A stretch of 64,000 nt of DNA from Nageia nagi (Eukaryota; Plantae; Pinophyta): the NCBI GenBank assembly GCA_050084985.1, contig JBITNC010000001.1:117056001-117120000 (forward strand). Reading direction: 5' to 3'. Position numbers and translations under genes: made by a program. Below, in pieces: positions 1,950-30,600 of this stretch (within the stretch, counting starts at the first letter, position 1; every line of letters starts with the position of its first letter). The notes beneath the pieces are model-generated. The model searched no databases. It had not been told where the DNA came from and worked only from the letters and a program-made list of their open reading frames with translations.

Positions 1950-3499
1950 GTAAAATCTAAATACTTTCATTTGATGGCAAATATCAAGATTAAAATGTAA
2001 AAAAATGTACATAATTGTCAAGCATAAAGAAAAACACACACAAAACAAATTAAATTATAATTTTGAAGACTGGAAACATAAATGAAGAAATTGAATACAT
2101 TATCACAACTTTCTAGAGACACCTTTTAAGGGTCTTAAGAATAAACTCAAAGTTTTCTTTTCTAGAAAATGTTAATGCTTTCTTGGCTTGGTTTATGATC
2201 CAGTATTTGTTACAATTTATGCAAACGTGGAATGATTTGCCAGCAATTTATCATTGGTCCATCTCGCTCACAATCTCCACTTAAAATAGATTATAAAGAA
2301 TCAAAAACAATGATAGCATAAAATTATATGATATTGTACACACAAAATAAAGAACAAAGTATTAAAAATATGTATAGGTTATTTATTTCTACAGAATGAA
2401 AATAAACTAATAGCGAAATGCAATATAGTATTTAGCAATTAGGATGACACAAAATTTACAAGAGGACTTACATAGAGTTCGCAAATTTGTAATGTCCCCT
2501 TTTGATTATTGTACTTAATTCTAGAATCCAACGGATTTCTCTTTGTACATATTTAATTATTAATTATGTTTTATTAGTTAGGACTTGGGATAGAAGACTT
2601 AATGGGTCACTGGACCCCACTATGAGACCCAAGTGGGGCATCTCCCTCCCAAGTAGTTTAGTATATTTTAATGCACTTGGAGATCCCGAAACATGATTGT
2701 AGGAATCCCAAGGTCTATTTAGCACTTAGAGCATGGATGAGCACTTAATGGCCCCAACGTTGAGGTTGGGAGCACTTGTACACATGCATCAACTTTGGGG
2801 AGACTTCTAGACCCCATGTTGGCCCATGACGCCCACATTGCCCTCCTAGATGCCCACGCACACCTCCTTGACCCATGCATGCATTCTTAGACCCACGTGG
2901 AGCATGAGGGAGGCCCAAATAGCCACGTTGGGCCTAGAATGACTCCTAGGTGTCATCGTTGAGGTTTGAGTGGACTAGGTGATGACATTGAGGTGAGATC
3001 CAGATCCAAGAAAGCTATATTAGCCCTTGGAGCCTTATTGTTGGATATACAGATTATTGACTATACACTTAGCATCCAAAGGAAAGAAGTCTTGGCACAA
3101 CGTCAAACAACATCCCTAAGTGCAGCATCTAGAATCGTTGAGAGGATGATGGATCATGTTAATCTACGGCTTTGGTGTAGCACCCTAGACTATCCGATGA
3201 TATTCCGAGGTCATGCTTCTACCATTTAGTTGGTCGCCAGGGTTTTGTTGTGACTAAAACACAACAGGCAAGATTTTGGGGTCCTTCAACACCTCATGTA
3301 AATACTTTGTCATGTTGTAGTCTTGTCCAACCCAAGTGATATCGCAAGACCTAGATTCAAGCACAAGCCCCTCAAGTTCAAGCCTCATCTTTCGTCTAGA
3401 ATCAGTCATACCAAGCTAAAAGTGTGAAATTCTTCCCAAAAATAGCTAAGTCGAGAAATTGAAAGTCGACCCTAGGTCAAGCCAAACTAGGTCACTCCT

Positions 3500-4430
3500 A
3501 GGGCTGGCGCATGATTTCAGAAGACAAAATCTTGACTTTTTGAAACATGCAATTGGGTTAGGGAGCCAGCCAGACTGAAGTTGAGACTCGAAAAGGAAAT
3601 CTGGGCCACTTTCAAGCCCAATCCATGCCTCCAAAAGACAAAATCTTGTCTCTTTGGAGCATGTGCCAAGGATAGGGAGCAAACTAGACCGGAATGAAGC
3701 TTGAAAAAGATAAGGCAAAGACACTTCAAGGCTAGCGCATGATTTCAAAAGACAAAATCTTGTTTTTTTGAACCATGCGACCAAACTAGAAGGAGGAGCA
3801 GGGCAAGTTTGAAGACCAAGAAGTGAACCCTAGGCATCCAAGAGGTTGGCGCATGCCTCAAAAAGACAAAATCTTGTCTTTTTGAATCATGCATCTAACC
3901 CAGAAAAGCTTCCAATTTGTTTGAAGATGAAAAATCGGTTAAGGAGGGCTAGCGCATGATTTCAGAAGGCAAGTTTTTGACTTTTTGAACCATGCACTAG
4001 ACCCAAGAAGCCTCTAGGATAGAACGAAGGTGAAAATTTTGGCAAAGGCACGGAGAAAAGAATATGCAAAAACGATAAATTGGCCATCTAGAGGCTAGCG
4101 CATGATTCAAAAAGACAAAAACTATCTTTTTGAACCATGTGACCAAGATGGAAGAGCAGGAGAGGCTGGCGCATGCCTAAAAAGACAAACATGACTTTTT
4201 GAATCATGCGCCAAGCTTGGGGGGTGCCCAAGATGAGATGAAAGATGAAATTCAACAAGCCTAGGCACCAGAAAGACCAAAAATCAGGCAAGATCAGGTC
4301 AAAGTGTGAGCTTCAGGTTCAAGATGAGCAAGTGAGCAAAGAAGGCCAACGAGGGTAGAGCACTCACCCCCAAGGCTGGCGCATGACCCAGAAAGACACA
4401 ATCTTGTTTTTTTACGCATGCGCCAATCCT
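3500..4430. repeat. Array of ~8 imperfect ~45-bp palindromes in B1
   Basis: gcgcatg..tcaaaagacaaaatcttgtctttttgaa.catgc near 3506, 3624, 3735, 3848, 3952, 4097, 4168, 4379. Confidence 0.85.
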
Positions 4431-4582
4431 TAAAGAGCTTTGAAACTCCCATATCTGGTTCGAGCCAACTTGACATGAAAATTTGGCTTAGGCACACATC
4501 CCGAGGTCAGCCAGATGGATGGTTGAGAAGAATTCCCCTCCTTGACCCAACCGACTAGGGTTTGTTGGAAGCCAGTTTTGGC

Positions 4583-4590
4583 TATAAGTA
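4583..4590 (+). promoter_or_regulatory. Candidate TATA box upstream of the B-element ORF
   Basis: TATAAGTA ~220 nt before ATG 4809; TATAAATA at comparable positions in B2 (17044-17051, -) and B3 (25919-25926, -). Confidence 0.45.
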
Positions 4591-4808
4591 CAAGCCTGGG
4601 GACTTCATTTTCTCAAATCCGAAATTCACTCCTCTTCTACTTTTGCACCAAAATAGCAGGAAATAGCAAAATTTTGAGTTTGGATTCCATCATACTTTAT
4701 CCTAGGGCTTGCGCAAGCATTTGGGAGGCAATCCAATCATACTTCATCCTTCACCACTTGGAAACCCTCGCATCACCCTTGAGAGACTTTGTTGCAAGCC
4801 TGAACACC

Positions 4809-7800
4809 ATGACTACTTCCAAAGGCAATTCGGCTTCGGACTTTGCTAGGGACCTCAAGCCGTTGAGACAAGATTGCATCATCACCATCTGTGATAGACA
4901 AGACTCACTTCCCCAAGGGGCCAGATTCTCGAGGAACGGTTTTTCTACCATCGAAGACACAGATTGGCAAGACGTTGACCCGATGCAAATGAGGGAGAAA
5001 ATACGTGGGCTGCCCACCACCGACCTCAAACAAGACATCGTCTTCTTCTCCAAGCTCTCCACTTATGCATTTGTCCCCTTCACAGCTCTGTTACCCGAAT
5101 TGTGCATGGAGGTCGGTCACCACTGGAAGAAGGGAGGGAGAGTCCTCCATGACATCAAAGGAGACATCATCATGGACTTCAACCCCAACGCCATCAAAAC
5201 GGCATTCCAATGGACTTCTGAGGGAAATTTCGAGTATAGTGAAGCTAAGTCACTGGCATGCTACTAGGAGACCCACAAGGCTTCCGTGGCAATCAAGAGC
5301 TAGATGTTGGATGAGCATAATGGGCTAAAGGGGAACGCTCTCATAAATGCTCCTCGTTCCAATTTCTACCCTTCAGTTGAGTTAATGATCTTGATGTTGT
5401 CTAGAGTTCTCGGGAAAGAAGATGCTTCCAAATTAAAAAAAAAGTTCCTCGGCTTCATTATCGAAATTGCTAGAGGGAAAAGGATTAGGTGGAGCAAGGT
5501 GTTGAGTGACACAATCGCTGATCAGTTATCATCCATAGGCACCACTCGCAAATTCTACCTCAATTCATACCTAGTGTATATGTTGCATCACGGCAAGTAC
5601 AAGGCCACGACGAAAGGAGAATCAACACTGATCAAGAAAGGGACCTATGCCATTTGGAAATGCTACACCAAATGGAAGCTTGAGAGGAGATGGGATAGTT
5701 TCACCATGAAGAACAATGGATGGGAGTATGAGATCTACAAGGAGCTCAAAGGAGAAATCATAGTGACGAGGATCTCTAACTCAACCCAAGACGTATTGAA
5801 GAAGAATGGGGTCTTCTTCCTCCATCACCAACACTATTCCTATATCAAAATTCATGGGTCAGTCGTGCATCCATACCAATTGCCAAGATTCGTGAGCAAC
5901 AAATTGCTTCTTATGAAGATGATGAGGCAATTGGCCTATCTACATGAACAGGTGTGGCAAAAGAAATAGGCTACTTCAAATTTGCCAATTATAGTAGGTG
6001 AATACCAATGTAAGTCTTGGGCGGACGTTGATACTATGAAGGAAGAGTTGGCAAAATTTAACTTCAAGAAGATGCATGTTGCCGACCATTATGACCTTGA
6101 CCACAGGATGCACCAGTTCTTCATGAACGAAAGGAAGAAAGCATATGAGCACAAACCACTTCGACAAGAGGAACCTTTCCGAAATGTGAGCAATGAGGTA
6201 GAGATAAGGAGGATTCGTTAAAAGATGCATAAGGATGCCCATGATTAGCAACACCTTGTTAAGGCCACTATCAACAAGAGATTGTCACAACAGAAGAGAA
6301 GAAAACCCAAGAGTCCACTTCCAGGGTTACCCAGTTTCCTCCCACAATTGAAGCACCAGTTGGACAGTGTGCATAAATGCATGGCAAGAATCCAATGGAA
6401 CAAGTAGTACAAGTCAGGAGCATCGTTGATGAGCATGACGTGAGAGAGTTGGAACGTGTGGCCACTGAGAAGATGGTGAGGTGTGTCAGAAACAGAGAAA
6501 AGGATCCATCTCCGCCATCCAAACCACCTAGAGAAGCTGCAGATCCATCACCAATCATTCCACCATCTGGATCTTCATCATCTAGTCCCATGTACAGAAC
6601 TAATGAAAGTCAAGAGGGAGAAGTAGGAGAGTCAAAAGGTGAACATGAGGCAAATGTTGTGCAACACAACGACATACCAGATACACAGCAAGAAGACGGA
6701 TCCTTGGAGATAGTGAAGGTAGTCCAGAATCCCATCGCTTCCAAACCATCCACAGAGAAGGGTAAGGGACCAGCCTCAAAGATAGTACAGAGAAGAGCCT
6801 AGTTGAAGAGGACTTCACAGTCACGGACGAAAGAAACCTCCAAGGAGCTTGGGGAAGACGAAGCAAGACCCTTGAAAAGGGCCAAGAAAAGTACCACCAC
6901 CGTTTAGGAAGCAGTTGTTGAAACTTATCAGCCATCAGCCACAGATGAGTGGGGCGTTAATATGGAGGAGTGTTTAGATGTGTTCAACATGGATGTCGAA
7001 GAGGAGTTCGAGGCAAGAGAGAAGAATGATCCGAATGGAGAAAGTTCCACTCGCCCAAGTAAGACCTAGACATTTGTGCATTTGGCTGATAATGCGATTC
7101 ACATCAAAACCATAATCGCTGATAAGGACAATCCACAATGCCCCGAAGACCTTAAGAAGATCAACCAAATCATCAATACACGTCCTATTGGTTTGGCTGG
7201 TCGGAAACATGCAATCATCTCCAACACTGAGGCAATTATCAAAGATGGGATGATGAAAGAAAAGGAGATTAAAAGCCTCATGAAGAAGTTAGTTGCACAA
7301 AAGAAATTGACTAGAGAATTAGAGTCAACTAAGGTGCCCACGGAGGAGCTTCAAAAGATAAAACCACTTAAAGAGGGCATGACTGTAGTGAAACAGGAAG
7401 AAATTGATGAGATCTTGGTAGTAGTACAGCAGTTCATTCGTGCACTGCAAAGGGTAGCGTTTGAAGAGCAGAAGCTTAAGGACATTATGGTAGAGAGCGC
7501 CAACCTTCTCATGGATTCTCGAAGGCCCATGATCATGAAATTCGAGATGACACGGGATCAGAGACCCGAAGATGTGAAGTTTTGTGAAAAATACTGGTTC
7601 TAATTAGGTATCGTCATTCCGATAGCCACACGTTTCTAGGAGGTGCAAAAGGAGGTAGAGAAACTCAATGACAAGAGTGAGACACTTCCTTCACAACCTG
7701 ATCATGACCGATGATGTTAACACCTACCAAACTGGGAGTCACCTAAAGCACTTGCTTAGAGCTCATGCTTGCAAAAATGATATGCAGAGGATGGTACACA

Positions 7801-7931
7801 AGGTTGGACACTGCATTGCTAGGAACGGGCCAAAGTTGTCAAAGATGTTGCATGGGTTGGAACTCACGGCAAAGTTCCTGGATGAAGATTTTGAGGGACG
7901 CGTTGAGGCTTTGGGCCCACATCCACCTTAG
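4809..7931 (+). pseudogene. Decayed ~1000-codon ORF of unknown function in B1
   Basis: ORF fragments 4542-5267, 5304-5969 and 5982-6221 share a frame, then 6377-6802, 7076-7603 and 7668-7931 after frameshifts; homologous to the B2 and B3 ORFs. Confidence 0.8.
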
Positions 7932-10900
7932 TCACAATTTTCATAGCTTGTGGTGTTATTTTCTAGAATAGACACTTATTTTTATAAAATACTTTTATTA
8001 TATTTGTTATTCAATTCCCCAAGCTTGTGATAGATGAGGATTTGCTCCCACAAGCATGGATGACATTTTGTAATGTCATGTGGCAGGTTTTGATTTGTCC
8101 ATTTGTAATTTCTTTCCTATTGAAATTAGGGTTAGGGCAACATTTAGGGTTGCCAGGAAACCTATTTATAGCCCATTTGGTCTCATTTATAGGGGATTAG
8201 GCATTCTTGCAAATTGGACAACTTAATACTTTCAAGCTCGCAAGTTTTCTCAATTTGTGAATGTGATATACTCCAAGTAATTGAATTGTGAATGATCTCA
8301 TTTGAAACTATGAATGTGAATGGGTGTTACTTTCTTATGCTATCTTGAATACTTGGTGCATTTCGTAAATTTGGTTTAAGGTGGACAAAAGAATGCTTGA
8401 ACATTCTTGAAAGTACTTCAAGTAACGCATGGTTATGTAATGATTCATAGTTTACACTTAGAACTTTTACACTTTAAGATGGCTCCCATACGTCGCTTAG
8501 TATAGGAACTTCACTTCCTTGATCAAGGTCTACCCACGTTTCACCTCTTTTACCTCCATCAACTTAGCTTCGAGCTCCTTTTGTTAGGTCATTTGTGTTA
8601 TTACCCAACAAATTGGATTCGGAATGCATGGAACCCATGACAAGCCCACGAGAGTTGAATCTTAAAACCTGTACCAGTTGGTGAGAACATTGAGCTCTTG
8701 TGTTGAATTCAAATATCATTGTCTTCTCAATCTTTTTCTTTTATTTCTATTTTTTTTTGCACGGCTTTCACAACCACATTTTCCTTTTTCTTTTGAGAAA
8801 CAACAATTTCTAGAGACAGGGACCCTTCAAGTCCTTGGTTAACAAATTGTATTTGAGTTGGAGATAGCTTGAAACATCTCAACCGATCACCTAAGCAACC
8901 TCTTGCACACCCATCACTAAACCTTTGTAACTAGTCCGCATAGCAGGTAGGGGTCATGCCCTATCACTAAGGTGTTGGTGTCTTTTTACAGGCCTTGCAA
9001 GTTCAATTGCCTATTAGCAAGGTAGGAAAGAAAAAGCCCCAAGCAAGTTTAAGGAGGGCTCCTTCGGTGGAGAGGATTCAAATTCTGAGGGAGTGAAGCT
9101 GTCCCATGCAGTATTTTGTCTGTCCAGCAATAGAGACATTCGTTGTGCCCTAGTTGGCTCCTTAGAGGCCAATGTTGAGCCCATTGGGCTTGGTATTGTA
9201 TTTGTATTCATTCTACGTCATTAATGCAAGTTGTGGGCTATTGGACCTCATATTTGTGTTGAGCATACTTGTCTATTGGCATCATTTCATTATCTTTACA
9301 TGTATGTGAATGTATGAACCAAACGTTGGCATTGTGAGGTCTTATTCACTTGTGTCTCATGCCCTAACCCAATCGTTGGCAAATTGGGGTGTTTGATGCT
9401 TGTTGATGCCCTTCTAGACCAAACGTAGGTGCTTGATTAAGAGAATTTGCTTAATTGTATGTGAAATTGCATTTAGGCTTTTATAAAAATCAAAGGCAAG
9501 TTGTGATCTTGGAGGACGAATCCTAGCATTCTAGAAATAACTTGTGCTAGACTAGATTGGATTCAACTCTTAGGACTGCTTCAAGGTCAATCTAGATAGA
9601 GACCAAATCTTGCATGTTTTCGGGCAGATGTCCCAAAATGCCCACATTTTATAATAGAGTCTAATACATCCATGGGGCCTCACAAAGTTTTAATGCATGG
9701 TGACCTCTGATTGATGTGTCTTGCAACTTTTTGCATGATTCTAGAGTTTGCTAGCAAAATTGGGCTTTAATACCTAAAACTCTGACTTAAAGAAAAGCTT
9801 TGAAGATTATGATGAATCTAGCAAAAGATATTAGAGCTCTAATATTTTTGAGGTCAAGAGTATGCACAACCTTGGATGTCAAATTCCAAGATCCTTGAAT
9901 GTGTCATTTTCTTTTGCTTTATATAGATTTGATCAATTTAATCTTGAATTCGCATTAGTGTAATTATATACACGGGCATAGGATAATGGAGACGAACAAT
10001 ACAATATGAGATCCAATGCCCCAACAGTTGTATAGAAGATATGAAATGAACAACGATACAATGCCAAGCTCCTAGAACTGGATGTTGGCCTCCAAGGAGC
10101 CAACTAGGGTTAATCGTATATCTTTAATGCTGGACGAACTAGAAGAACCATGGGATAGCCTCGCTCCCTCAGAACCTGAATCCTCTCCATCGAAGGAGCC
10201 CTCCTGTGATCCTAGCGGCCAACTGAATGGCAGAAGCTTAACCTCAGAATACCACCGGATGGGCAAGGGTGTTGCACCAATGTTGTAGATGATCAGAATC
10301 CCTCAGCTTGAACCCTCCTAGATGTTGCACCTAGGAGATTGCTTAGCGCCGCTAAGTCTTGTTGTCCTTTGGACAATATGAAGTATAATAATAATCAAGT
10401 ATATCCAACAATGAGCCTCCAATGCGTCTTTATACACTCAACTTTGTCTGGATCTCACCTAGGAGTCATTACCCGACTTCTTAGTCCCAACATTAGCCTC
10501 CTAGGGGCCCAGAATGCCCAACGTGGGTGCCTAGGGGTCAAGCATGCCAACGTGGGGGTCTAGGAGTGCCACGCATGCCCAACGTGGGTCTGGGAGCCAT
10601 GCATGGGGTCTAGGTGTCATAACGGGCCAACGTGGGGGTCTAGGAGTCTCCACAAGGCTGGTGCATATATACAAGTGCTCATCCATCCACTTAAGTGTAA
10701 AACAGACCTTGGGATTCCCTCAATCAAGATCAGGATCTCCAAGTATAATAAAACACCTAATCTACACTTGGGATGGAGACGTCCCACTTGGGACTCACAA
10801 TGGGGTCCATTGACCCATTAAGTCTTCTATCCCAAGTTACAATATGAAAGTACAATTAAGTAAGAAAATATATTACAAAGGGGAATCTGTTGGATACCAT

Positions 10901-11825: not shown

Positions 11826-13811
11826 ATCCAACCTTTACTGAGTGTATATCAGTCCCAAAGTCATAAGCAAAGAGTACAACAGCAGACTCATTGTTATCAG
11901 CCATTAATGCAGCCCATACCTTCTTCATAACAGTCCAATTTTCATCACATACAACAGCACTCAAAGCTGAATCAAATACCCAAACATGCTTATTAAAGTT
12001 TGGAATATACACAATCGTCAACATGTGAGGTACTGTAGCCTTTCTCGTGTGCTCAGGGTCAAACAACAAGTCTGAAATGTTGCCAATAATAGCGGACTCC
12101 TTTCTTGACTCAGTCCATATCAAACACAAAATGAAATGAAAATATGTATCAACATTTCCCAAGTATGCAAACATGGTTCCTCAAACGACAACCATTGATG
12201 CCATGGTTTTCTCGCATGCAACCCAAATGAAGGTCATATCTCTGATGCAAATCATAGTAGGCACAAGGAACTCAGACCTATCACCATGTGCAGTCCCAAA
12301 TAATGTTGGATCAGCCACCCATATTGTAACAACTGTCCTCCCTGTTGTCCTCATGCGTTGCTCAAGTCCATCCTTGACAACATCCAGATATGCAGCCTTC
12401 AACTCATAGATAACAGCCTTCAATCCTTCACCAAATGATGTATCAACAGCACATTCGTAAACAACAGTCAAGGCTTCTTCGATTTCAGTCTCAAGGGTGA
12501 TAAGGAATGCAATCCTCCTCATAAAAACAGCATCTATCAATGTATTGTCTGCAGAATCTTTCGTGACGCCATTAGCACTTTCATTACCAAGATGATTCTT
12601 CAAAGATGGGGCGAATGGTACCAAGGCAGGAATCAACTGTTTAAGATGCACCAACTCTTCCTTCAAGTCTGATTTGAAAACCTTCATGCTTTCTATTGGG
12701 GGCTTTTTCTTTCCTACCCTTGCTGATTGGCAAATAGTATCACAAGGCCTTTGGAAAGACTCCAACACCTGAGTGGTAGGGCGTGACCTCTACCCGCTAT
12801 GAGATTTTGACCTCAAAGGTTTGAAAGTGAAGGGTACGAGGGTTCACTCAAGTGATAAGGTGGAGATGTTTGAAGCTGTTACCAACTCAAATAATATTTG
12901 TTAACCAAGGACTCAAAGGGTCCCTAATCCAGCAATGGTTGTTTCTCAAGAAAAGAGGAAAAAGAAAATATTTGTTGCGAAAGCCATGCAAAAAAAAATT
13001 AAAAAAAAAAAGAATAGAAAGGGGTTTGTGAGAAGACGGTGGTATATGAATTCAGCTCTAGGACAATGTTTTCACCAACTAGTATGGATTTCAAAGTTTG
13101 GACTCGCACGGGTTTGGCCTAGGTTCCACGCATTCCTAATCCGGCTTGAAAGGCAACGACACGAGTGTCCTAACAAGACGAGCTTGAAGCGGAGGTGATG
13201 GAGAAGTAAGATAAGATGTGGGTGAAACTCAAACACGGAATGAAGTTCCTAGATTAAACGGCATATGCAAGACATCTTAGAAGACACTAATCCAAAGTGC
13301 AAACTATGGAACGTTACAACCATACACTACTTGAAATGTTTCAAAAGATTAAAAAGCACTCTTTTGTCCACCTTTAATAGATTTACAAAATGTCCTAAAC
13401 ATTCAAGATAGCATAGAAATATAACACACATTCACATCCATAGTCTCAAATGAAAATATTACTCACTTCAATTACTTGGAATTTATATCACAATCACAAA
13501 AGGGAATCTTGCAAGTTTGAAAGTATCATGTAAGTAGCCCAATTTGCAAAAATGTCTAATCCCCTTACAAATGAGCCCAAATGGGCTATATATAGTTTTG
13601 GTGGCAACACAAAGTGTTGCCATAACCCTAATTGCAATTTCCAAGAAATAAAGTATGGTCCATCAAAAATACGCCACATGGCATCACAAGATATCATCCA
13701 AGTTTGTGGGAGAAAATCCTTATCCATCACAAACTAGGGAATTTATTAATAGTTAAATAAAAGTTTTTCCAAAATAATTATGAGATATAATAATAAAAAC
13801 AAATAATATGG

Positions 13812-16800: not shown

Positions 16801-16842
16801 CCTAGCGAAGTCTAGGGCTGAATTACCCTTGGAGGAGGTCAT
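13812..16842 (-). pseudogene. Decayed unknown ORF in B2
   Basis: Fragments MTSSKGNSALDFARD..., PYQLPRFVSNRLLLM, MKPLKEGM..., LHGLELTAKYL align with B1 fragments. Confidence 0.8.
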
Positions 16843-17204
16843 GGTATTCTTGCTTGCAACGTTGCTCCTCAAGGGTTGTGCGTGGGTTTCCAGGTGAAGA
16901 TGATGCCTACGTTGGAGGAGCTTGCCTCCCAAGGGCTTGCGCAAGCCCTAGGAAACACAAAAATCTGCAATTTGCTGTAATTTTGGCACAAGAGTCGAAG
17001 AGGAGCGAATTTTGAATTTAAGAAAATGAGGTCCTTAGGATTGTATTTATAGCCCATCTAGCTTCCAACTTGACCTAGTCAGCTAGGGTTACTAACAAGC
17101 ACCATCTTAGCCTTCCATCTGGCTGACCTTGAGATGTGTGCTGGCCCAAAAACTCATGCAAAGCTGCCTGTGCCCAAACATTGGGGTTTTGAGGATCAAA
17201 CTAG

Positions 17205-18165
17205 CTTAGCGCATGCTAAAAAAAGACAATTGTGACTTTTAAAAGCATACGCCAGCCCTAGGGTGAACATACTCCCAACGTTGGGTCTCTTGATTGATTA
17301 CTTGCTTGGCTTGATCATCAAACTCACCCATCAACCTGATTCTCCTGATTTGTGGTTTCCGCATCAGCTAGACTCAACAAATTTGATCTTTCACCTCAAC
17401 TTAGGCAACCTGTAAGCTTGGCACATGCTTCCAAAAGTCAAGTTTGTGACTTTTTGAGGCATGCGTTAGCCTTGCCTACCCGTCTAGCCTAGTTGCATGG
17501 TTCAAAAAGGCAAGATTTTGTCTTTTTGAAGCATGCGTCAACCTCCAAATGGCCTAATTTTCGAAATTTGATGCTTAAGAGTTCATGCCTTTGCCAAATT
17601 TGTCTTTGCCTAGTCCTAGAGGCTTTCTGGGCTTGGTGCATGCCTCAAAAAGTCAAGAATCTGTCTTTTGAGATCATGAGCCAACCCCCTGGGTATGCTT
17701 GAACTGATCTTGGGGTTCCCGGGCTCATGACTTATCAAATTTTCACTTTCACTCAAATTGGAAGCCCTTCTGGGCTTGGCACATTGTTCAAAAAGACAAG
17801 ATTTTGTCTTTTTGAGGCATGCACTAGCCTCCTGGATGACTAAGGTTCATTTTCCGACGTTCAAACTTGTTCAACTCGTCCTCCTGGCCAAGTCGCATGG
17901 TTCAAAAAGACAAGATTGTCTTTTGAAACCATGCACCAGCCTTGTTGTGGCTTTGCCTTAGATTTTTCATGCTTCACTTTGATCCATCCTGCTTCATGTG
18001 GTTGGCGCATGCCCAAAAAATACAAGATTTTGTCTCCTGGAGGCATGCGCTAGGCTTGCAAGTACCCAGATCCCATCTTCGAGCCTTCCTTCCTGTCTGG
18101 ACGGCCCCCAAGCCCAGTCCCATGGTTTCAAAAGACAAGATTGTCTTTTTGAAACATGCGCCAAC
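17205..18165. repeat. Palindromic ~45-bp repeat array in B2
   Basis: gcatggttcaaaaagacaagattttgtctttttgaagcatgcg units, same motif as in B1. Confidence 0.85.
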
Positions 18166-18554
18166 CCTTAGAGGCGCCAAGTTTGCTTGATTGGGCTCCG
18201 GCTCTTCTTAGACTCCCTGGTTCCCCTAAAATCGACTTTATGCTCTTCCAGACTTAGCCATTTTTAAGAATTTCAGAATTTCTAACCTAGTATGACTAAC
18301 CCTAGACGAAGAATGAGGCTTGAACCAAAGAGGGATTTATTCATGAACCCGGGTCTTTGTGACACAACTTGGGTGGGGCAAGATGACGACAAATGGAGTA
18401 TATACACGATGCGTTGAGGGTCCCCAAAATCATAGAATTTTAGGGCATGTGTTTTAATCACAACACTTTCATTTTCATTCTCCAACCTTCTTACTCTCCC
18501 ATTATGTGCAAACACATCTGGATCCCATGGAGCTAGGAGACTATTGCAATTCAC

Positions 18555-19585: not shown

Positions 19586-19677
19586 CTGCTCCAGAATAAG
19601 CTCAGCATAAGTTTACGGAAAAACCATACTTATATAAATTGATGAAATGCTCTTTACAAAGCCCTCTAGTAAACCAC

Positions 19678-19743: not shown

Positions 19744-21851
19744 CTGCCATGAAAAGACAATCATAAGCTACTAATTAAAAATAGCCCTTAGGGCCTTGTG
19801 CAAATAGTTAAACAAATGGATTTCACCATGGACATGGAACCCACTCTTAGTCAACCTCTTGGTCAAAGATAAAACCTTACAAATGTAGAAGAATGCAACC
19901 ACTTATGGTCAAAGAGTGGCAACATGAACAAACATCCCCAGTCTGAGAATGACAACCCGCTAAGAGATAGCATGGCACCCAAGCTATGAAATGTCAATAA
20001 ATAAAACTGACGACGTAAGGAATTGGGCACGAAGCAAGAAAACAGCAAATTGTTTGGTTTTCTTACTTTATAGAAGAGTATTATTTATCAAAACAAAAAG
20101 CAGTGATCATAATAGCTAACCATAAATTGCTCCAATAGAACAAAAAAAATACAGTAGTGGCCACTACGTAAAAGAAATTTCTGATTATCAAACTTTCATT
20201 TCTCAATAGCTGTTTACCAGTTTGTTCTTCCTGCTATTTGTATTTCAGCTGGCCTCATTTATGTTAAAGGTTTACAAAATGAGATAATCATATTCCCAGG
20301 GTACTCGACAAGTGCTAAATACAAGTAGCCATGTTTAGCCATTTGTCAAGATTGATTCCCTACTCCACATTTTAAATACAACTGAAGTAATTAACAGGTA
20401 AGAAAAAATAAGAAGCCGAACACGTCATTTAGCAAGAAGAGAGATACAGTCTGAACTTCCATATGTTGTTGAATATAAAGTAGCTTTGGTCTGGTTGAGT
20501 CATCATATCCAGTAATTGATGATTTTACTTGGAAGGGCATCACGAGAAGAGAATTTCTCCACATATCCTTATTCAAAACATGCAAATGCTTCATTAATTT
20601 CTGGGTTGGGTTCTGTTGGGATGCTTTTCTTTTCCTTGTATACACTCTGAAAATCGCGCGCAGAACTTGGGAAATCCCAAGCAACATAGTCAGGAATGCG
20701 TTACCAATTCCCCCATTTGAAAAGGACTTATACCTCCAAGGCTCTTGTTGAAACAACTTCCAACATTGTGATGTTTAAGGTATGCCCACTAAGTGTGTTC
20801 CTGGTCTAGGGATAGATAGAGAAAATGCAGCATCCCTCTTTGGAATCAGCCTCAATGGAATCGAGTGAGAGGTAGTAGTTTGTTAACCAATGTTGTTTTA
20901 TTCTTTGATGTATAGAGTTTATTCAAAACCTTTGTGTGTGGACTTAACGATTGTATTTGGGTTTGAAAGCATAAATAAAGCATGAAGAAAACATAAAGGA
21001 AATACAGTAAAAGGTGAAGGACAACAACTTGGAGAAGGAATGGATACTTGGTTGGATATGAGTTTGAGGTTTACTAACAGGAAAGTGTCTAAGAGTTTAT
21101 TGCTTCCAATTCGGTTAAGGACTCTTCATCCAATTCATCCAACCTTGCAAGCAAACAACTCAGCATTCGAATTGCTTCAAAGAGGAGCGGGGAGGAACGC
21201 CAATTGTTGGTTCTCTACGAATGGGACTGATGCAATTGAATGGAAAACGATCGGTTTCAAAGCAAAAGAATCATAGTTTTGGTTGAAGGACCTAACAAGA
21301 TGTCATGAAAGTAGAAACTAACATAGAATACCCAATCAACTTGAATGTTAAGGATCAAGCAACAAGCATAGGTAAGCTTCAGGCACTTTTTAAAATTTTT
21401 CAGAGGTAACTTCCCTAAAACTCGAAAGCTTTCAAAGGAATAAAATGAAAGTGCATAAACCAACTATAAATGTCCTCAAAGATTCAATCCATAACAAGAA
21501 TATGGAAAGTATCAAACTTAAGTCTTTGCATAACCAATTTGTATTATATTTGAAAAAGGAGGTGCCAAGATTTACAATAAGCTCTCAATTCTCAAAAGTT
21601 TTCTCTTCAAGACTTAAGTGTTTGCTTGAGAATGAATTCCTTACAAAAATGAGACCCTTGGTCTCTTACTGAGTTTTGGAAACCTTAAAAGTGGCTTTTG
21701 AAATATAGTTTCAAAATCCTAATCTCTAATTGCGAAATTAAAAGCTAATTGAAAATGCTAATGGAGATTACAATTGAACTTAGTGGAATCCACTAAGTTA
21801 GCCAATATTTGGCTTACAAATCAAAAATTTGCCAAAATAGACCCCTTTCTA

Positions 21852-24800
21852 TTATGGCGATTGTGGGAAGATGACTTGTACATTTTTCGCGATTTTGGCT
21901 ACAAAGTCATCTCCCATTAACACTTCTATATTCCTGATGGCCTGATGGATCATCTGAAGGACTCCTTTGTTTGGTAGCAGGTGCTTCAAGATGGCCTTAT
22001 TGGTTTTGACCATTTCCTTGCACCATGTGACAAGTCTAATTCCTCCTTTCATCTATCTTCAGGCTATGTGGATCCTCGAGACATAACTGTTTTGCAATGG
22101 CGTCGTGGACTGTTGTCATCACTGTCATACTCCTTGATGTTGTCATTTTCCTCAAACAAAGGTACCTTGAATTCGTGTTCCCTTGCCTGCTCACTGATAA
22201 CGACTTTGAGTTGAGTCCTAGCGTATATGAAGTTGGTAGATTTGACTTTTATGTAGAACAAATAATCATACAATTGGAACCAATCTATGCAAAAATCTAG
22301 CACGAATGGATGATGAGAAGCCCTTCTCCGTAGGTCAAACATTGTGGAGTACCCATTCTTCCATCTGATGATCAACTGGTCTAACCTTTTCGCCTGAGAA
22401 TGCGACCCCTCCTCAATATAAAAATTTGTCATGCTTGAGTGGAGTGCTTTGATAGCCTCAATAAAATCCTTGGTCCATTCTTGCTTCAGGGCGATGATTC
22501 CAGTGTTTAAGTCAACTTGCTTTTTGATGTCTTCAACTATCAAATTAGCAGCCTTGACTTCTTTGTCAATCATCTCCTGACTAGCCACTTTCTTCTTCAG
22601 TTCCCAGATCTCTAATTTGAATAATGTATTGGATTCCCTTAGCGCCCATGCATTAGTGATAATGCTATGCTCCATTCCCAATGGGCCAACAATCTTTGTA
22701 GGGGCCTCTTCTATTTCAACTGTGAGAGCAAACTTTTCGGTACCAACCTTTGTTCTTTCTGGAGTAGAGCTTGTCCTTGTAGGTGACTTTACCTACAGTG
22801 GTGGTGAGAGTATCAATCTGCTGAAATTCCTCATTTTCATCTTCAGAATCTTCTCCTTCACAGGGATGATTTGAACTCAAGTTAGCCATCACTGCAGCAA
22901 TGTCGAAGCGGGGTTCCATAGGTTGTTTTCCATAAGGAACCATTTCTCCGTCTTCAATGATTTCAATGTCATGCTCTACTTCTCTTCTTTTTCTTCTCTG
23001 TTCTTCATCTTCTCCTTCATCTTCCGAATTTCCATCATCTCCCCCTGAAGATGATGCCATTGTCCTGGGTCTTGATGTACCCTTTTGTGTTGGTGTTGTC
23101 GCAATCCTCTAAGATGGTGGTGTTTGTGATGCCTGTTTTTGAGGAGCGAACTTTGGGGTGCCTGCTCCTGCTACCTATTGTACAACCATATCAATCGAGA
23201 GATTGTTTTCATCAAGGATCTCTACCGAGTGATCAGTGTTGACCCTATCAAAAGCAATATCTCGGTTTACTTCCATGTTGGTGTCAATGATTGCATCAAG
23301 ATCCATCTCTTCATCGGACTCTGACAAGCTACTTGGTCCATACTTGTTAGAACTGGACGATGATGTACTGGGGTTTAGATTCAAGCGCATACCACTCCGA
23401 TTCAAACCTTGTGGGAGATCCATCTTTTCTTGCAAGTGTTTGAATTGTTGAGAGATCAAACCTACTCTTCTGAGGTCCATGATGCCATTCTTCGTACCCA
23501 TGACAGTTGTTTCAATGGTTTGTCCGAGGATGCTATTGGTAGCATACTGCCCATTTTGTCCTTGAGCCAACGTTACTGAGGGTGATATTATGGAATAACA
23601 TACCCATGTGGCTCGGGGATACAATGACCTGTGCATTGGCTCTTAACCTGGCAGCTTCTTCGACTTCCCGTTGTTTTTGTTCTTTATTCAGCTCCTTGTG
23701 AATCAATTGAACCTGCAAGGTGTCCGAAATGTTCCTGTACCTCTCAATACTACCAAGGGACTGATGTGGATATAATGAGCTCCATGTTTTCTGAAAAAAT
23801 GTATCAATCACTCCATTTGGATCATAGTCATCCGCTACTACCTCGGTTGGGAATTCATACAACGCTAGCTCTTGTTTAATCATATCAATCTGAGGCCAAG
23901 TGGTGCATTCATAATTCCCAATGACGACAGGTAATTGGTAAGTGGTCGCCGCCTTTTGTACCCAAACCTTGTCGTGTACATTAAGCAAGTGTCTTGAAAA
24001 TTTCATTAGGATGAGGTGATCACTTGCGTAACGGGGTAGCTTGTAAGGAGCTTCTTTGGAACCATATACCCTGAGGTAGGAAAATTCTATGTCCTCCATG
24101 AAGAAGTCCGCATGTCCCTTGATAGTAGAAACAACTTCATTGGATATTCTGCATACATTAGCTCTACCCATGATCTCTTCATAGATTTTGCCTTCAAAAC
24201 GGTAGTCATCATCTTCCAATGGTCGTCATTCCATTTATTGTGAGCATAGAACCGTGGGTAATTTTCCCACACTGGATGTGTGGGGTCATACAAATATTTG
24301 GTATTGGCAATTGAGGTTACTCTCTCCCTACCATGAAGTAGGTAAACCAAGTAGGAGTTCATGTAGAATTTCTTGCTCCTTTGAATGTTTTTCAATTGTT
24401 AAGCCAAGGAATCGCTAATCACTCTACTCCACCTTATGCCTTTACCGCCACTGATGAGATCTATAAACCTAGCGAATTCCAACCAGAGTTTGGTGTCATC
24501 TTTCTGTCCGGCCACTCTGGAAAGCATTGACATAATTCTGGAGACTACAAGATAGAATTCTCCTCTATTAGGCATTGCTAAAGCTCTCCCTGTGAGGTGC
24601 TTGTGATCATTGGCCAACCAATCTCTGATCAAATCAGATGGAGGTTTCAGACTTTTGTAGAACCTCAAGGAGTCCTACATGCTATATGATACACCTTCGC
24701 TTGTCCAAGCGAATGCCCTTTCTATTCCTTTCTTAGAGAAATCCATGATCACCTCGTTTTTCGTATCGAAGAGTCTCCACCTTCGGTTGTCGCAATGCTT

Positions 24801-25046
24801 TCCTAGCTCATAGCACAGCTCAAGGAAGGGGGTAGCAAATGGCACCATAGAGGCTGTCACTAGTAAGGAGTTTTTCAATGGGTCCTTTACTAGTGTAGCC
24901 GGATCCATCAACTGTATTTTCATCAAAGTTTTAATGGGGTCCAAGGAGTTACAATCTATGTCCCCAATTTCACTCAATTGGTCAATGATCCTTGCAACAG
25001 GCATCACAGGCTCCATTGTATATTCGAGCGTGATGGGGTTGTCCAT
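21852..25046 (-). pseudogene. Decayed unknown ORF in B3
   Basis: Fragments 24675-25046, 24399-24668, 24087-24395, 23533-24219, 23175-23636, 22716-23060, 22064-22681; N-terminal half shares motifs with B1 (KFYMNSYLVY, GKGIRWSRVISDSLA, PYKLPRY). Confidence 0.8.
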
Positions 25047-26359
25047 TGTGAGCCTTCTCTACTTCATGTCTAAGAGAACAACACAAAGTTAGAAGAGTCC
25101 CAAGAGGCTTATGGCACTTTCTAGACAGGCAAAGAGAGATTTTGAAAAATTTGAATTTTTGGATTTTTTTACTCTAAGTGTACCATCATCGAAAAATGTC
25201 AAAATTTGGAAGGTTCAAGGCCTTTTGGGTGAGTTTGGAATGACATAAAGGTAACTGACTCAAAGAGAAATGCCTTGGAAAAAATTTAGGACATTTGGAG
25301 AATTCTCAATTTTTAGCTCAAAAAGTTGACTTTTCCAATAGGAAAAAAGTGTGAAATTTGGCAAACTAGCCAAATGGTGCTAGAATCGAGTTTTAACACC
25401 TTAGATGGATGGGGAATGAGTGGGGAAGGTGTTTTAAACTTTCAGACAATCAAAACGGACTGGAAAAACACTTTTTGAAGTTTTTGGAAAAATTTCTGGA
25501 TTTTTTTGAATTTTTTGTAAACAGATGAGGATTTTAGGCACTCAGATCTTGGATCATATGTATTTCTTTTGTTTTTTTGCTGAAAATAAAAATTGATCAC
25601 AAGGATAAAGGGTATCCAAAAAAGTGATCAAACTTGAAATCTGCAAAAAACTTTTTTCAAGTGCTTGAGGCTTGGGAAAATGGGGTTTTGGTATGAAAAA
25701 TCCTCAAAACTTAAAAAATGGAGTTCATGTGGGATGGAGGATATTGGATCTTGGAGTATAATGGAGTTTGGATGGATGGCAAAGATGCTAAGTGTTATAT
25801 CATGCTCCAAAGGTGAAAATGACTTTTTCCGTCACTTCAACTCTCCAATTCTTAAAAATTTTGGCAACATAAGGGTGCAAAATGGGAGTAGTGAGTGAAA
25901 TGGAGGGGTATATGGGTGTATTTATAGACTTAGGGGTGAAAAGGTGCAAAATGTCAACACCACATCAACCCTAAGTATAAATTATGCATTTTTGGCTTTT
26001 TCCTCTAATGCCCAATGTTGGGAAAGTGGAGTAAGATGGGGAAAAGGGGCAAAACCTGTGCCTAAGTATGGAGGGAGCAGATTTGGTCCAATGTGGGGGC
26101 TCTTGGAAGAAAAGATGATGTATTTTGGATGCTCTTCAACCTCCATACTTCAAATATGGATTTCAAATTTTGAGATTTTTGGGAAAAAATATCCAAATTC
26201 TTGAGTTTTCATCCCTTCGATCCTTTTTGAATGAAAAAAGGTGGTTTTTGGGAGTTTTTATGGACCAAATTGCACAAGTGAGAAACCAAAGTGGTGTAGA
26301 ATCACACCACCTATCACATGGAAGCATTAAAGGTCACTTTTGAGCAATTTTGAGGGCCA

Positions 26360-27620
26360 AGGAGCTAGGCACAGGTTTTGAGCATGTTTGGAACTTTGGT
26401 GAAATGGCCCAAAACTTTCAAAACTCCCCCTTAACTTTTTGGAAGGCAAATCTTGAGTTTTTTTGCAATCTTGCAAGAGGCAAAGATGCTTAGAATTTGA
26501 TTTGCCACCCTACCTTTCTCTCCAATTTTAATTTTGACAATTTTGGAAAATTTTCAAGCTCTCCCATTGGCTGATCCAAATTTTGTGATTTTCAGGGAGT
26601 AGATCCATTTTTTTCCAAAAACTTAAAACATGAAACTTGTTCAAAATTGGATTTCCAATGCTCCTAGGATGAAAAATTTCAACTTTCAAGCATTTTTGAG
26701 CCCTCCCAAGCTTGGTGCAGGTTTTGGGACTTTTGGGCCAGCTTGGAAATTTGGGAAAAGCAGGGAAAACTCCTAAAACTGCCGCCTAGCTTTTTGAGGG
26801 GCATAATTTGATTTTTTTGCAAAATTGCAATAGGCAATATTGCTTACAGTTGGATTTGGCACCCTACCTCTTTCTCCTTTTTTTGATTTGGCCAATTTTG
26901 GAAAATTTAGAAAATTTTGGAGCTTTCTCATTGGCTGATCAAATTTTGATGATTTGAGGAAGTAGATCTCATTTTTTTGGAAAACTCAAATCATCAAACT
27001 TGTGTGAAATCCCATCCTACACCCCATGGAGATCAAAAATTTCAATTTTTTACATTTTTAGGGTGCAAGAATGGTAGGCGCAGGTTTTGGGAGGAATAGA
27101 CCATTTTCAAAATTTGGTCAAACAAAGGAAAAGAGGCAAAACCAACACCTAGCTTTTGAGGGGTGTTTCTTGACTTTTTTCGAAAATTGCAAGAGAGAAG
27201 ATGCCTAAAATTGGATTTGGCACCCTACCTCTTTCTTGGATTTTCATTTTGACATTTTTAAAATTTTGGAAAATTTGGAGCATTCCTGTTGGCTGTCCTT
27301 TTGCTCATTTTCCTTTTTTTGCACTTTTGGTGGAGCAAAACTCATTGAAATTACGAACTTGAAAGATCAATTTGATGTAGAATCGCGATCTCCATTCTCC
27401 CATGCTCAAAAATTCCACTTTTCGATCAATCTGGACCTCCCAAAAGGTAGGCGCAAGTTTTCAAGATAATAGACCATTTTCCAAATTTGGTGAACTAAGG
27501 GAAAACTTGCAAAACTTCCCCCTAGATTTTTGGGGGTCAAAACTCGAGATTTTTCGATAATTCCAAGAGCAAAGTGGCCTTAATTTCTCATTTGGCACCA
27601 CACCTCTCTCGGATTTTCAT
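26360..27620. repeat. ~350-bp period degenerate tandem repeat (4 units) in B3
   Basis: (a/g)ggcgcaggttttg...aaaac.gc.cctagcttttt...gatttggcaccctacctct recurs near 26365, 26710, 27073, 27446. Confidence 0.75.
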
Positions 27621-30600
27621 TTCAAGCATTTTGAAAAAATTCATTTTTCGGGGTTCAACCAAAAGCTTCTCAGATGCCAAAACGCTTATTTTTCTATTTT
27701 ACCGCCCAAAGGGCGCTCAAATTTGCTTTTCGGATCCATTCCAAGCTATACTGCACATTCCTAGCCTTTCTCGTCTCTTACAGGCCCAAACAATGCATTT
27801 TGACCATTTCCAGCATTTTCAAACATTTCCAAGCTCGAACGGTGAAAAAATTATCAATTTTGGCATTTCGAGCTCAAAGTCTACATTTCCAGGCTTTCTA
27901 GACTCAAGATATGCAAAAAAATCATTGCTAGCATTTGCGGGCATTTCCGAGCACTTTGAGCTGAACTTTGCATTTTCAGTCATTTCCAAGCATTCTAGGC
28001 TCAAACTGTGCAAAAATGCACTTTTTCACCGTACTGACCAATTCCAGGCTCAAAATTGACAAAAACGCGCTTTTCTATGCTCCGGGCTCAAATTTGATGA
28101 AAACACGCCTTTTGGCCATACTTGTCTTTTCTGAGTTCAAATTGTGCAAAAATGCACATGTTCATCATCTTGATTGTATTCACTACTCTCGAGCTAAAAC
28201 TTGACAAAAAACAATCATTTTGTCACCTTGGCACCTTTTTTGCTCAAACTTGCAAAAACGACAACTTTTTCTCCCTAATGGCCATTCATTCAAAACTCCA
28301 TTGTCTGATCACTATCGTCACCCAAAACTCCATCCTGTGAGATGTCACTTGAAACCGGGCCTTGATTTGGCCACTGACTGCGCTGAACTCTCTTCATGAC
28401 TCTAGGGCATGCTCGCACACTATTTGATCATCTAGCCGCTCTAGGTCTCTATACTGGCCGTAGGTTGATCATGCCTAGGCAATGTAGCTCATTGCCATTG
28501 CAAAACATTGGGTCCCCAAAATGCTGCATCTTGAAGTGTGTTGTGTGGGCACAACAGGTTCATTGATCTCATGGAACTGTTATGCTGCTCAAAGGTATTT
28601 TATCTTCAAAAGTAAATTTGCATAGGTGATATCCATCGCACTTCCAAATGTCGCTAAAGGGAGATGTATTATTATAGTACTTTGCAGTCTTATCCATTTG
28701 TGCCATAAATCACGTGGTTGAAATTTCCCATGTGCTATATTCAGGAAGCTTTTCACTGCACTCACAAACCTAAATCTGTATACACTGGTCATAAATATTG
28801 TTTATCTCCGTTAAAATGCTGAATGGAATAAAACAGAAATGCACAGATTCTAAAGTCCTATGCATCTTATATTTGAAACAATTTATCAAATGAACACAAC
28901 AGAAAGGACTCATTCAATCTACGGAGTTTCAAGGAATAAAAGTTCAATACATGATGAACATCGCTGCAAATTCTGGAAAGCACTTATTCAAGTTTGTAAT
29001 GTTGTCAATTTTGAGAGATCTTATTAAAGGCATAACTTTCGCCACAAGTCATGGATTGTTGATTCTTCTTCTGAAATGGATAGAGCATCTGTTGCCAGTT
29101 ATTTTGACTGGTTACACGACATCGTATCATCAGTAAATGAAAGAGATATTACATTTTGAAATCCGCCTCCTGGACCAAACTATAATCGCACGCACAGAAA
29201 TTCACAATTTTGTATTAATGTCTCTAGGAGTGAGACATCCCTCTTCTAGGGATATGAAGTAGTGATTTATTGTATTTAGGAGTGAATTATGTAATTAAGA
29301 GTATTTTGTCATTTGGGCCAAACTATTATGTCTCTAGGAGTAAGACATCCCATGATCTAATTGTAAGACAACGTGGGGCATCCATCTTTGCATGAGGTGA
29401 GATCTAGCTTCCACAATGGGATGTCCAGCCATAAGAGAGAGAAACGCACCATGAATACATCATCTTTGGCATTTGATCATCTTCTACTCTTGGAGTCTTG
29501 GCGTGTAAACAGCTCTATTCCTCTTATTGGACAAAAACCCATAAAGAGAGGGTTTAGTAGGACGGGAACCCTACTAGATCTAAGGCTAAGGATGAAAACC
29601 CTTGATCTCATCTAGTGGCATTTTGAGGCATCATTCCTCCTTTGGTTCCATGCATGAAGATCTCCTTCATTGATGCATCCAAGTTTGAAGGAATGTTGAT
29701 ATTGCAATTTCAGCTCAAATTCGTGGGTTAGAGGCCCTAGCAATGTGATGCCAACATTCTTGGTGCAATTGTGGTTCCTAGCATACCAGATCTAGTCCCT
29801 TGAGCCAGACGTCCAACCTTAGGTCATCATTGGATGATTTTTGTGGCATTCTACTAGCATCATTAAAGCAACATATTTCAGATCTAATTTTGTTGCTGCA
29901 GAAATAAATTTGTTTGTGTTTGGAATTGGAAATTTTGAGCAAAATAATATTTTTCCTGATTTGGGACATTACAATGGTATTAGAGCTGGATTCCTGCCAA
30001 CCTATGAAGAGATCAATTCAGATGGAGGACAGACATAAGAAGAGAAAGGGTTCAATCAATATTGAACAAAAACTTGATGTTTTGGTAGATATGATGACCA
30101 CATTACTAGCTGAGTTGAGAACCTCTCATACGACGTCAGGAGGTGATTCGGCTAGGGCAACAACGCATAGATCTATGTCAGATATGGAGAAGAGGACACT
30201 ACCACACTTTCACAAATCCGGATTCGCATGGGAACAGGATCTAGGAGGAGGATAACCCTTTTTGTATAGATCAAGGTTTGCAAGAGATCCAAGAGAAGGA
30301 GAAAGTCCGACATGGAGTACAACTGGGCGCCCACCACCCATGCATCCACCACACTTGCCTAGGTTGCCCAGGCCCATGTTCCTTCCTAGGCAAGAGGATG
30401 ATATGGATTTTCTGACTCCATTGGAGTTGGATGCCCTATTTCACAAATATGAAATTCGGAAAAATTCAAGGCTTTAATCAGTTTTTCGGATTACTTAGAG
30501 ATCTTGGGGAAAAGAGTGGTTGGAAACAATTGGCCATGAAGATGTCAGGAAGATGAGGAGTTGAGTTGGATGAGAGTCCCGTGGTATGAAGATGAAGACA

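What the first reader, a model, noticed from the sequence alone, without database searches (positions are those of the whole stretch)
3246..28556. Family of giant (5.8-7.9 kb) solo-LTR-like elements that each carry their own ~1000-codon gene
Seen: B1 (3246-9045, +), B2 (12694-18465, -) and B3 (20614-28556, -) have TGTTG...CAACA-type ends and 5-bp TSDs (ggttt/agttt, ctttc/ctttc, ggttc/ggttc). B1 and B2 cleanly split host sequences that rejoin when the insert is removed. None has gag, RT, integrase, a PBS or an internal direct-repeat pair. All share the layout terminus - repeat array - TATA - long ORF - AT-rich tail. Established: TG..CA ends with a 5-bp TSD are the footprint of retroelement integrase, and a single TSD-bounded unit is a solo LTR. 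Inference: these are very long LTRs with a full gene inside them. A second TATA-like site followed by cattt(g/a)ta after the ORF (8162 in B1, 13586 in B2) suggests the ORF sits in U3, analogous to MMTV sag. The gene would be duplicated in every full element and would survive solo-LTR formation. Alternative: an independent non-autonomous unit mobilised in trans.
Basis: partly seen in the sequence, partly recalled or inferred. Interest (0 to 1): 0.9.

Follow-up and report, generated by a model that had tools for sequence, protein, structure and literature searches.

The report
Giant LTRs carrying VANC-like gene
Three 5.8-7.9 kb insertions in a plant gene's introns are likely leftover end-pieces (solo LTRs) of a jumping gene, and each holds a decayed gene whose protein is predicted to fold like the transposon anti-silencing protein VANC21 beside an array of repeats it may bind, which would make each end-piece a self-contained cassette for escaping host silencing.

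Summary
B1, B2 and B3 are real insertions with TG..CA-type ends and 5-bp target duplications, and no gag-pol, PBS or terminal repeat pair. B1 and B2 align end to end (71%); B3 is a distant relative (31-38% protein identity). The ~1040-codon gene was conserved as protein (third-position divergence 0.39-0.44 against 0.12-0.21) but is broken in all three copies. It belongs to a family with no Pfam match that includes a Taxus protein. New here: the predicted N-terminal domain matches VANC21, a DNA-transposon anti-silencing factor, the only one of 48,161 solved chains with Z>=2 (Z 7.0, rmsd 4.7, 243 of 282 residues). Subfamily-specific repeat arrays lie upstream of the gene, as VANC targets do. A second conserved promoter-like block ~0.9 kb from the 3' end fits a U3/R boundary. 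Best reading: giant solo LTRs of a gymnosperm Ty3/gypsy lineage with a PMD/VANC-fold gene and its probable targets in U3. Not shown: no copy was found joined to an internal region (0 of 11 ends), and no genome was available, so an LTR-less unit remains possible; binding is untested. The scan noted U3 genes on other DNA before, none VANC-like.

The parts
3246..9045 (+). B1, whole unit (probable solo LTR); TSD at 3241-3245 and 9046-9050
3246..3266 (+). 5' terminus, a 7-bp self-complementary TGTTGTG..CACAACA; the TGTTGTG start and a TTTTGGGG motif recur in B2-B5
   Evidence: folding of the first 55 nt is not better than shuffles
3499..4435 (+). B1 array of about 8 palindromic ~56-60 bp units; candidate protein-binding sites (inferred)
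   Evidence: best unit z -6.9; 8 units; background 26 in 26 kb
4556..4620 (+). Promoter-like block P1: TAGGGTT, TATA at 4582, CATT-type start; same order in B3, TATA and CATT in B2
   Evidence: function inferred
4809..7931 (+). B1 decayed ORF, about 1040 codons
   Evidence: codon-position bias; homologue P0003 bridges both halves; C-terminus shared with B2 and L001
4935..5771 (+). N-terminal domain predicted to have the VANC21 (PMD/DUF1985-like) fold
5766..6300 (+). Second predicted alpha/beta domain (residues ~320-490), no clear fold match; followed by an acidic, Pro/Ser-rich linker and a charged C-terminal region
   Evidence: (best Z 3.0)
8011..8330 (+). Promoter-like block P2 (two TAGGGTT, TATA at 8162, CTCATTT); conserved non-coding island; inferred U3/R boundary
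   Evidence: identity 0.75-0.81 against 0.63-0.68 in the next 400 bp among four copies
8811..9045 (+). Conserved 3' terminal block ending AAAAAGCCCC(C)AACA-type
12694..18465 (-). B2, whole unit, 71% to B1 end to end; TSD at 12689-12693 and 18466-18470
13812..16842 (-). B2 decayed ORF
17190..18170 (-). B2 palindromic array, 8 units
20614..28556 (-). B3, distant subfamily, in an intron of the host gene; TSD at 20609-20613 and 28557-28561
21852..25046 (-). B3 decayed ORF, about 1065 codons, 31-38% identity to B1 in the N-terminal half
26376..28173 (-). B3 repeat arrays (~360-bp units and shorter A-rich units), unrelated in motif to B1/B2
54489..55050 (+). B4, truncated 5' end of B3 type
58220..59726 (-). 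B5, 5' end of a third subfamily with its own 60-bp tandem array; cut off by another LTR; no ORF seen, membership rests on the terminus only

Best explanation
B1-B3 are likely solo LTRs of a gymnosperm LTR-retrotransposon lineage (probably Ty3/gypsy of the Tat type) whose U3 region holds a repeat array, a promoter-like block and a now-decayed gene for a protein predicted to have the PMD/VANC fold, which would bind the array and keep the element from being silenced. Shown: ends, TSDs, empty sites, a once-conserved ~1040-codon ORF, subfamily-specific arrays, two promoter-like blocks. Predicted: the fold. Inferred: P1 drives the gene; P2 marks the U3/R boundary and would drive the genomic RNA; integrase inserted full elements (5-bp TSD); recombination between the very long LTRs removed gag-pol and left one LTR with the gene; the protein would recognise its own subfamily's array as VANC does. 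Approximate odds by step: LTR 0.7, fold relationship 0.8, binding of the array for anti-silencing 0.45; Tat assignment rests on recalled terminal patterns and on known large LTRs and extra ORFs in that group, not on a test.
For: Ends and 5-bp TSDs, empty sites; 5-bp TSDs are the rule for most plant LTR lineages (PMC6317226 supplement). No terminal repeat pair. Three outside copies end at the same base with unrelated flanks; depth falls to zero at that base in three runs. P2 conserved and at an LTR-like distance from the end. Purifying selection on the ORF: mismatch by codon position 0.156/0.118/0.390 and 0.210/0.183/0.444, flat in non-coding controls. Model pLDDT 83; VANC21-DNA complex 9lnk top at Z 6.5 (next 3.0) for the long model and sole chain with Z>=2 of 48,161 for the domain (Z 7.0, rmsd 4.7, 243 aligned). 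[quoted passage not shown] PMD and VANC are structurally related, and a MAIL2-associated motif is palindromic (PMC13547354; bioRxiv 2024.09.27.615353). PMD is a common extra ORF of Ogre elements. Long LTRs are reported to recombine more (PMC7251063 passages citing Du 2012).
Against: No copy joined to PBS, PPT or gag-pol: 0 of 6 3' ends have TGG within 5 nt and 5 of 5 5' flanks are unrelated, while 5 LTR ends of other families in the window do carry a tRNA-Met-type PBS. In four conifers solo LTRs are rare (1 per 4 to 7.5 complete elements) and, in spruce, not tied to structural features (PMC5751070 passages). Z 7 lies in the range the tool calls common for best hits, rmsd is 4.7, identity 7%, Foldseek and sequence profiles found nothing, and 0 of 140 family members hit Pfam PMD, DUF1985 or Transposase_28 among the 25 of 34 families listed. 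The arrays are as CpG-depleted as the rest (o/e 0.25-0.43 against 0.39-0.48 in the ORFs), so no lasting protection is visible. LTRs of 5.8-7.9 kb exceed the ~5 kb given as largest in PMC6317226. Repeat arrays are common in large non-chromoviruses without any known binding protein.
Confidence: 0.5

Rival explanations
1. A self-contained unit with no gag-pol in cis: a new non-autonomous element that carries only its accessory gene and borrows an integrase-type enzyme.
For: 0 of 11 ends in 8 copies touch an internal region; solo LTRs are scarce in conifers studied; VANC itself comes from DNA transposons.
Against: No terminal inverted repeat beyond 5 bp; an RNA route cannot rebuild both ends without a repeat (established LTR mechanism); P2 points outward 0.9 kb from the end, which serves an LTR but not a closed unit; 3 of the 8 copies were chosen for being TSD-bounded and only 3 outside copies were unselected.
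Confidence: 0.2
2. Giant solo LTRs, but the protein has another job (for example activator of P2, or a structural partner) and the arrays are ordinary expanded LTR repeats.
For: A shared fold shows no function; 7% identity; extra domains of unknown fold; arrays not protected from CpG loss; Ogre PMD ORFs have no function shown in the passages read.
Against: Gene and arrays both diverge by subfamily while termini and order are kept; both characterised branches of the fold oppose silencing at DNA motifs.
Confidence: 0.25
3. Ordinary internally deleted two-LTR elements whose short LTRs have diverged.
For: Layout resembles the 3' region of Retand/Grande elements with their own-promoter extra ORF and repeats (PMC7264820 passages).
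Against: No end-to-end similarity above shuffles in any of the three, although B1 and B2 still align at 71%; no PBS after any internal CA at matching places.
Confidence: 0.05

Closest known systems
VANC21 and its target repeats in Arabidopsis VANDAL (Mutator-like) transposons (PMC5735166, passages; PDB 9lnk)
   Same: Predicted fold over the whole domain; transposon-encoded; family-specific repeated motifs in non-coding DNA of the same element; coiled or charged C-terminal part plausible
   Different: Here the carrier has TG..CA ends and a 5-bp TSD, no transposase; gymnosperm-type host, whereas VANC is described as dicot-specific (PMC13547354); 7% identity; binding and demethylation untested
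PMD extra ORFs of Ogre/Tat Ty3/gypsy elements and other eORFs (PMC6317226 passages and two supplements; PMC7264820 and PMC5418596 passages)
   Same: Accessory gene of the PMD/VANC fold in a probable large LTR element with repeat arrays and its own promoter
   Different: Those ORFs are described in the internal region, mostly antisense between pol and the 3' LTR, and PMD in angiosperms; here the gene lies inside the TSD-bounded unit, in the sense of the LTR promoter, and is not detected by Pfam PMD
Solo LTRs of large non-chromovirus elements (LTRs up to about 5 kb, PMC6317226)
   Same: TG..CA ends, 5-bp TSD, repeats, promoter about 0.8-0.9 kb from the 3' end
   Different: 5.8-7.9 kb and a whole ~1040-codon gene inside
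MMTV sag in U3 (recalled, not read)
   Same: Complete ORF with its own promoter upstream of the LTR promoter
   Different: Unrelated protein, about three times longer, plant retrotransposon

Membership tests
Solo LTR of an LTR retrotransposon | TG..CA ends | tested here: met
   TGTTG start in 5 of 5; CAACA end in B3, L001, L002, L004, decayed in B1, B2
Solo LTR of an LTR retrotransposon | 4-6 bp TSD around a single unit, empty site | tested here: met
Solo LTR of an LTR retrotransposon | No internal region or terminal repeat pair within the unit | tested here: met
Solo LTR of an LTR retrotransposon | Same sequence occurs as a direct pair around PBS-gag-pol-PPT elsewhere | tested here: inconclusive
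   0 of 11 ends in 8 copies; loose-end table showed no row at the terminus among 18 of 64 rows; no genome
Solo LTR of an LTR retrotransposon | U3-R-U5: transcription start and poly(A) site | not testable with these tools
   Only motif and conservation evidence for P2
Tat (TatII/TatIII/Ogre) lineage | RT/RH/INT phylogeny, aRH position, PBS type | not testable with these tools
   No linked pol found
VANC anti-silencing proteins | VANC/DUF1985 fold | tested here: met
   Predicted model, sole match Z 7.0, rmsd 4.7, 243 of 282; moderate score
VANC anti-silencing proteins | Sequence similarity to VANC, DUF1985 or PMD profiles | tested here: inconclusive
   No hit listed; 9 of 34 weak families not shown
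VANC anti-silencing proteins | Encoded by a Mutator-like element | tested here: not met
   5-bp TSD, TG..CA ends, no transposase domain; so it may work like VANC but is not filed as a VANC
VANC anti-silencing proteins | Family-specific motifs amplified as repeats in non-coding DNA | tested here: met
VANC anti-silencing proteins | Binds the motif and removes silencing marks | not testable with these tools
   Needs binding and methylome experiments
TIR DNA transposon with integrase-type enzyme (Ginger/TDD type, recalled) | Terminal inverted repeats of tens of bases or more | tested here: not met
   Inverted end scores within shuffles

The most novel reading that the evidence does not exclude
A gymnosperm retrotransposon lineage has built a complete anti-silencing module, a VANC-fold gene with its own promoter plus its target array, into the LTR itself, so that every solo LTR left behind is a self-contained cassette able to act on its subfamily in trans; the very large gymnosperm ORF family of unknown function is the missing non-angiosperm branch of the PMD/VANC fold. 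If no gag-pol partner exists, the unit is a new kind of element.
Probability: 0.33. Interest if true: 0.9.

Novelty: new variant of a known kind. Interest (0 to 1): 0.74.

Why it matters
Sequence-specific anti-silencing is established for VANDAL DNA transposons; the passages read give no function for retrotransposon PMD ORFs. A VANC-fold gene beside its own subfamily-specific array gives a direct test of anti-silencing in LTR retrotransposons, in genomes made giant by them. It also gives a fold to an abundant unannotated gymnosperm protein family, bears on whether PMD/VANC arose in retrotransposons before angiosperms, and suggests that LTR finders with usual length limits could miss whole lineages.

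Tried and rejected
No whole genome. Terminal pattern: 0 matches in viral contigs; 7 in metagenome contigs, 3 real (L001, L002, L004) and 4 without similarity to the window; 3 in prokaryotic genomes, none similar. Protein-based locus scans found no relative in viral or prokaryotic contigs (two earlier tries failed for lack of conserved columns, 42, 43). Array pattern in viral contigs: 20 loci, none with the ORF; at least 3 share 36 bp of the palindrome, probably terminator-like hairpins. Run search: no RNA holder listed. Second read-laying did not show the letters beyond the 3' end: 6 of 24 listed pieces run on 30 or more letters, flanks not printed. Foldseek on PDB and viral models: nothing at E<=0.001. 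PDB sequence search: nothing. Second domain: best Z 3.0, not folded alone. C-terminal region: one homologue, no Pfam. ESM Atlas gave no result. A TGGCGCC 280 bp inside B2 was rejected as a PBS: absent in B1, no matching terminal repeat. A relic PPT before P2 was rejected: the purine run is the coding end of the ORF. Terminal hairpin not better than shuffles. Literature: 0 papers for 'ORF within the LTR', 'within the LTR' with 'additional ORFs' (60), 'ORF in the LTR' (73), VANC21 crystal structure (88); searches listed nothing on a VANC-like gene in an LTR; these are phrase searches of open papers only. Tanaka 2026 and Sasaki 2022 were not held; supplements 1 and 3 of PMC6317226 were too large to read and may hold gymnosperm elements with such LTRs.
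Full report
Setting. The window is plant DNA: exons of an RNase J gene on the minus strand (Pfam RNase_J_b_CASP, E 4.7e-7) are separated by introns full of old retroelements. One member of the protein family studied is a Taxus chinensis hypothetical protein, so a gymnosperm-type host is inferred. No whole genome was held.

Boundaries. The three units start TGTTG; B3 ends CAACA, B1 CAAGCA, B2 CAATA; TSDs are ggttt/agttt, ctttc/ctttc, ggttc/ggttc. B1 splits an LTR whose paralogues in the window have the 5-bp site once; contigs from 3 of 3 runs join across it, one joint skipping 5805 bases. B2 splits a host ORF. B1 and B2 align over 5962 columns at 71%. B3 matches only as protein and at the termini. 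Two more 5' ends, B4 (54489, +) and B5 (59726, -), share the start motif; B5 has its own 60-bp array. First and last 300-1000 bp of each unit show no repeat: 17 of 18 scores within 40 shuffles, one 1 point above. In three runs 10358, 4411 and 5200 contigs lay on B1 plus 200-bp flanks, covering 30 of 30 bins: the family is abundant, though this is no copy number.

The gene. All three ORFs are broken; the longest open stretch is 246 codons. Between B1 and B2 mismatch by codon position is 0.156/0.118/0.390 (4809-6326) and 0.210/0.183/0.444 (6377-7612), flat in leader and tail, so it evolved as protein. A metagenomic homologue aligns over all its 496 residues in one frame of B2 and bridges both halves; the C-terminus is shared by B1, B2 and L001: one ORF of about 1040 codons. 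146 clusters at 50% identity are related at E<=0.001. Pfam gave no convincing family for 140 members. No hydrophobic segment in B1 exceeds 1.54 on a 19-residue scale and basic clusters are present, which argues against an env-like protein.

The fold. AlphaFold2 on the first 506 residues, read with X at stops, gave pLDDT 83. Foldseek found nothing. The exhaustive aligner put VANC21 bound to DNA (9lnk) first at Z 6.5, rmsd 4.6, 228 aligned, next row 3.0. The domain folded alone (282 residues, pLDDT 83.5) matched 9lnk as the only one of 48,161 chains with Z>=2: Z 7.0, rmsd 4.7, 243 aligned, model 3-281, 7% identity. The tool warns that best Z of 7-8 is common; what counts for it is uniqueness and full-domain cover. 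VANC and the plant mobile domain of MAIN/MAIL1 are reported as structurally similar (PMC13547354, passages; bioRxiv 10.1101/2024.09.27.615353, passages), and PMD is the commonest recognised extra ORF of Ogre elements (PMC6317226 supplement). PMD was surveyed as an angiosperm family with Gypsy-encoded clades (PMC5418596, passages).

The arrays. B1 and B2 each carry 8 palindromic units of about 56-60 bp within about 1 kb, against 26 hits in 26 kb of control; the best unit folds with z -6.9. B3 and B5 have arrays of other motifs, and each motif is nearly confined to its subfamily's leader. [quoted passage not shown] The parallel is an inference; the arrays are no less CpG-depleted than the ORFs, which is expected for long-dead copies but gives no support.

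LTR or not. Two promoter-like blocks share the order TAGGGTT, TATA, CATT. P2 is a conserved non-coding island among four copies (0.75-0.81 against 0.63-0.68 just downstream), 883-901 bp from the 3' end; two ordinary LTRs in the window have their TATA 783 and 808 bp from the end. That fits U3 of about 4.9 kb holding array, P1 and gene. Against: 0 of 6 3' ends are followed by TGG and 5 of 5 5' flanks are unrelated, while 5 of 7 PBS-like hits in the window follow LTR ends of other families. Only 3 copies were unselected (3 of 7 metagenome matches), so the test is weak: even with conifer-like ratios (PMC5751070, passages) three misses have a chance near 0.17 by my estimate. The second read-laying confirmed a sharp end but did not print the flanks. 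The LTR step therefore stays inferred (about 0.7).

Comparison. Extra ORFs of plant LTR elements are described in the internal region (PMC7264820, passages; PMC6317226, passages and two supplements), and the largest LTRs at about 5 kb. TatII and TatIII are gymnosperm-specific (PMC13477047, passages). Phrase searches found no paper on an ORF within a plant LTR or on a VANC-like gene there; Tanaka 2026 and Sasaki 2022 were seen only as references. MMTV sag, the Ogre/Tat terminal patterns and Ginger/TDD elements are recalled. Earlier scan notes describe U3 genes in fungal and invertebrate elements and an extra gene beside a palindromic U3 array; none matched by sequence or named VANC; they are unchecked and not counted as support.

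Verdict. Real, abundant, old elements. Most likely giant solo LTRs carrying a PMD/VANC-fold gene and its probable target array; a new variant of known parts, with an LTR-less unit as the main rival. Interest 0.74.

Noticed in passing
window 19400-49900 (-), exons at about 49550-49800, 40511-40705, 40200-40330, 39950-40040, 29150-29200, 20450-20560, 19400-19700: Host gene for RNase J spread over at least 30 kb of intron-rich DNA; B1-B3 lie in or beyond its introns.
   Followed up: partly
window 45631-47890 (+): Fragment of a Tat-type element: LTR-like start, G-patch-like and RT pieces (recalled motifs), RVT_3 (aRH-like) then Integrase_H2C2. aRH just before INT is the order PMC6317226 gives for angiosperm Ogre/Retand, here in a gymnosperm-type genome. 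No link to the B units.
   Followed up: partly
window 34998-39569 (+) and 30481-32791 (-): Ty3/gypsy elements with tRNA-Met-type PBS, gag and protease traces but no RT seen; terminal repeats about 90% alike in the first.
   Followed up: no
window 56400-56757 (-): Decayed piece reading YGQEYGKENPIRVLY..GHYDAL, resembling the end of a plant OTU deubiquitinase (recalled, not tested); probably a retrocopy.
   Followed up: no
window 56757-58212: An LTR without matching TSD that joins B5's array to unrelated DNA; probably a recombination product that removed the rest of B5.
   Followed up: partly
window 10912-12687 (-): Host ORF split by B2 contains a 30-bp tandem repeat coding a 10-residue repeat and ends at a purine tract before an LTR.
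   Followed up: no
L001 3031-3474 (-); L001 1-127 and 3758-3890: The flank of this B copy reads like a Ty1/copia gag interrupted by the insertion (recalled); the contig's ends are inverted copies of an inner stretch, probably an assembly or amplification artefact.
   Followed up: no
window 8870-8990 and L004 489-560: A short GC-rich hairpin block about 65-130 bp from the 3' end has the highest contig depth in the tail; possible U5 or R signal.
   Followed up: no
L015 10000-10035, L028 7790-7825, L030 5169-5204: Viral contigs share 34 of 36 bp with the B1/B2 palindrome but no ORF; probably terminator-like hairpins.
   Followed up: partly
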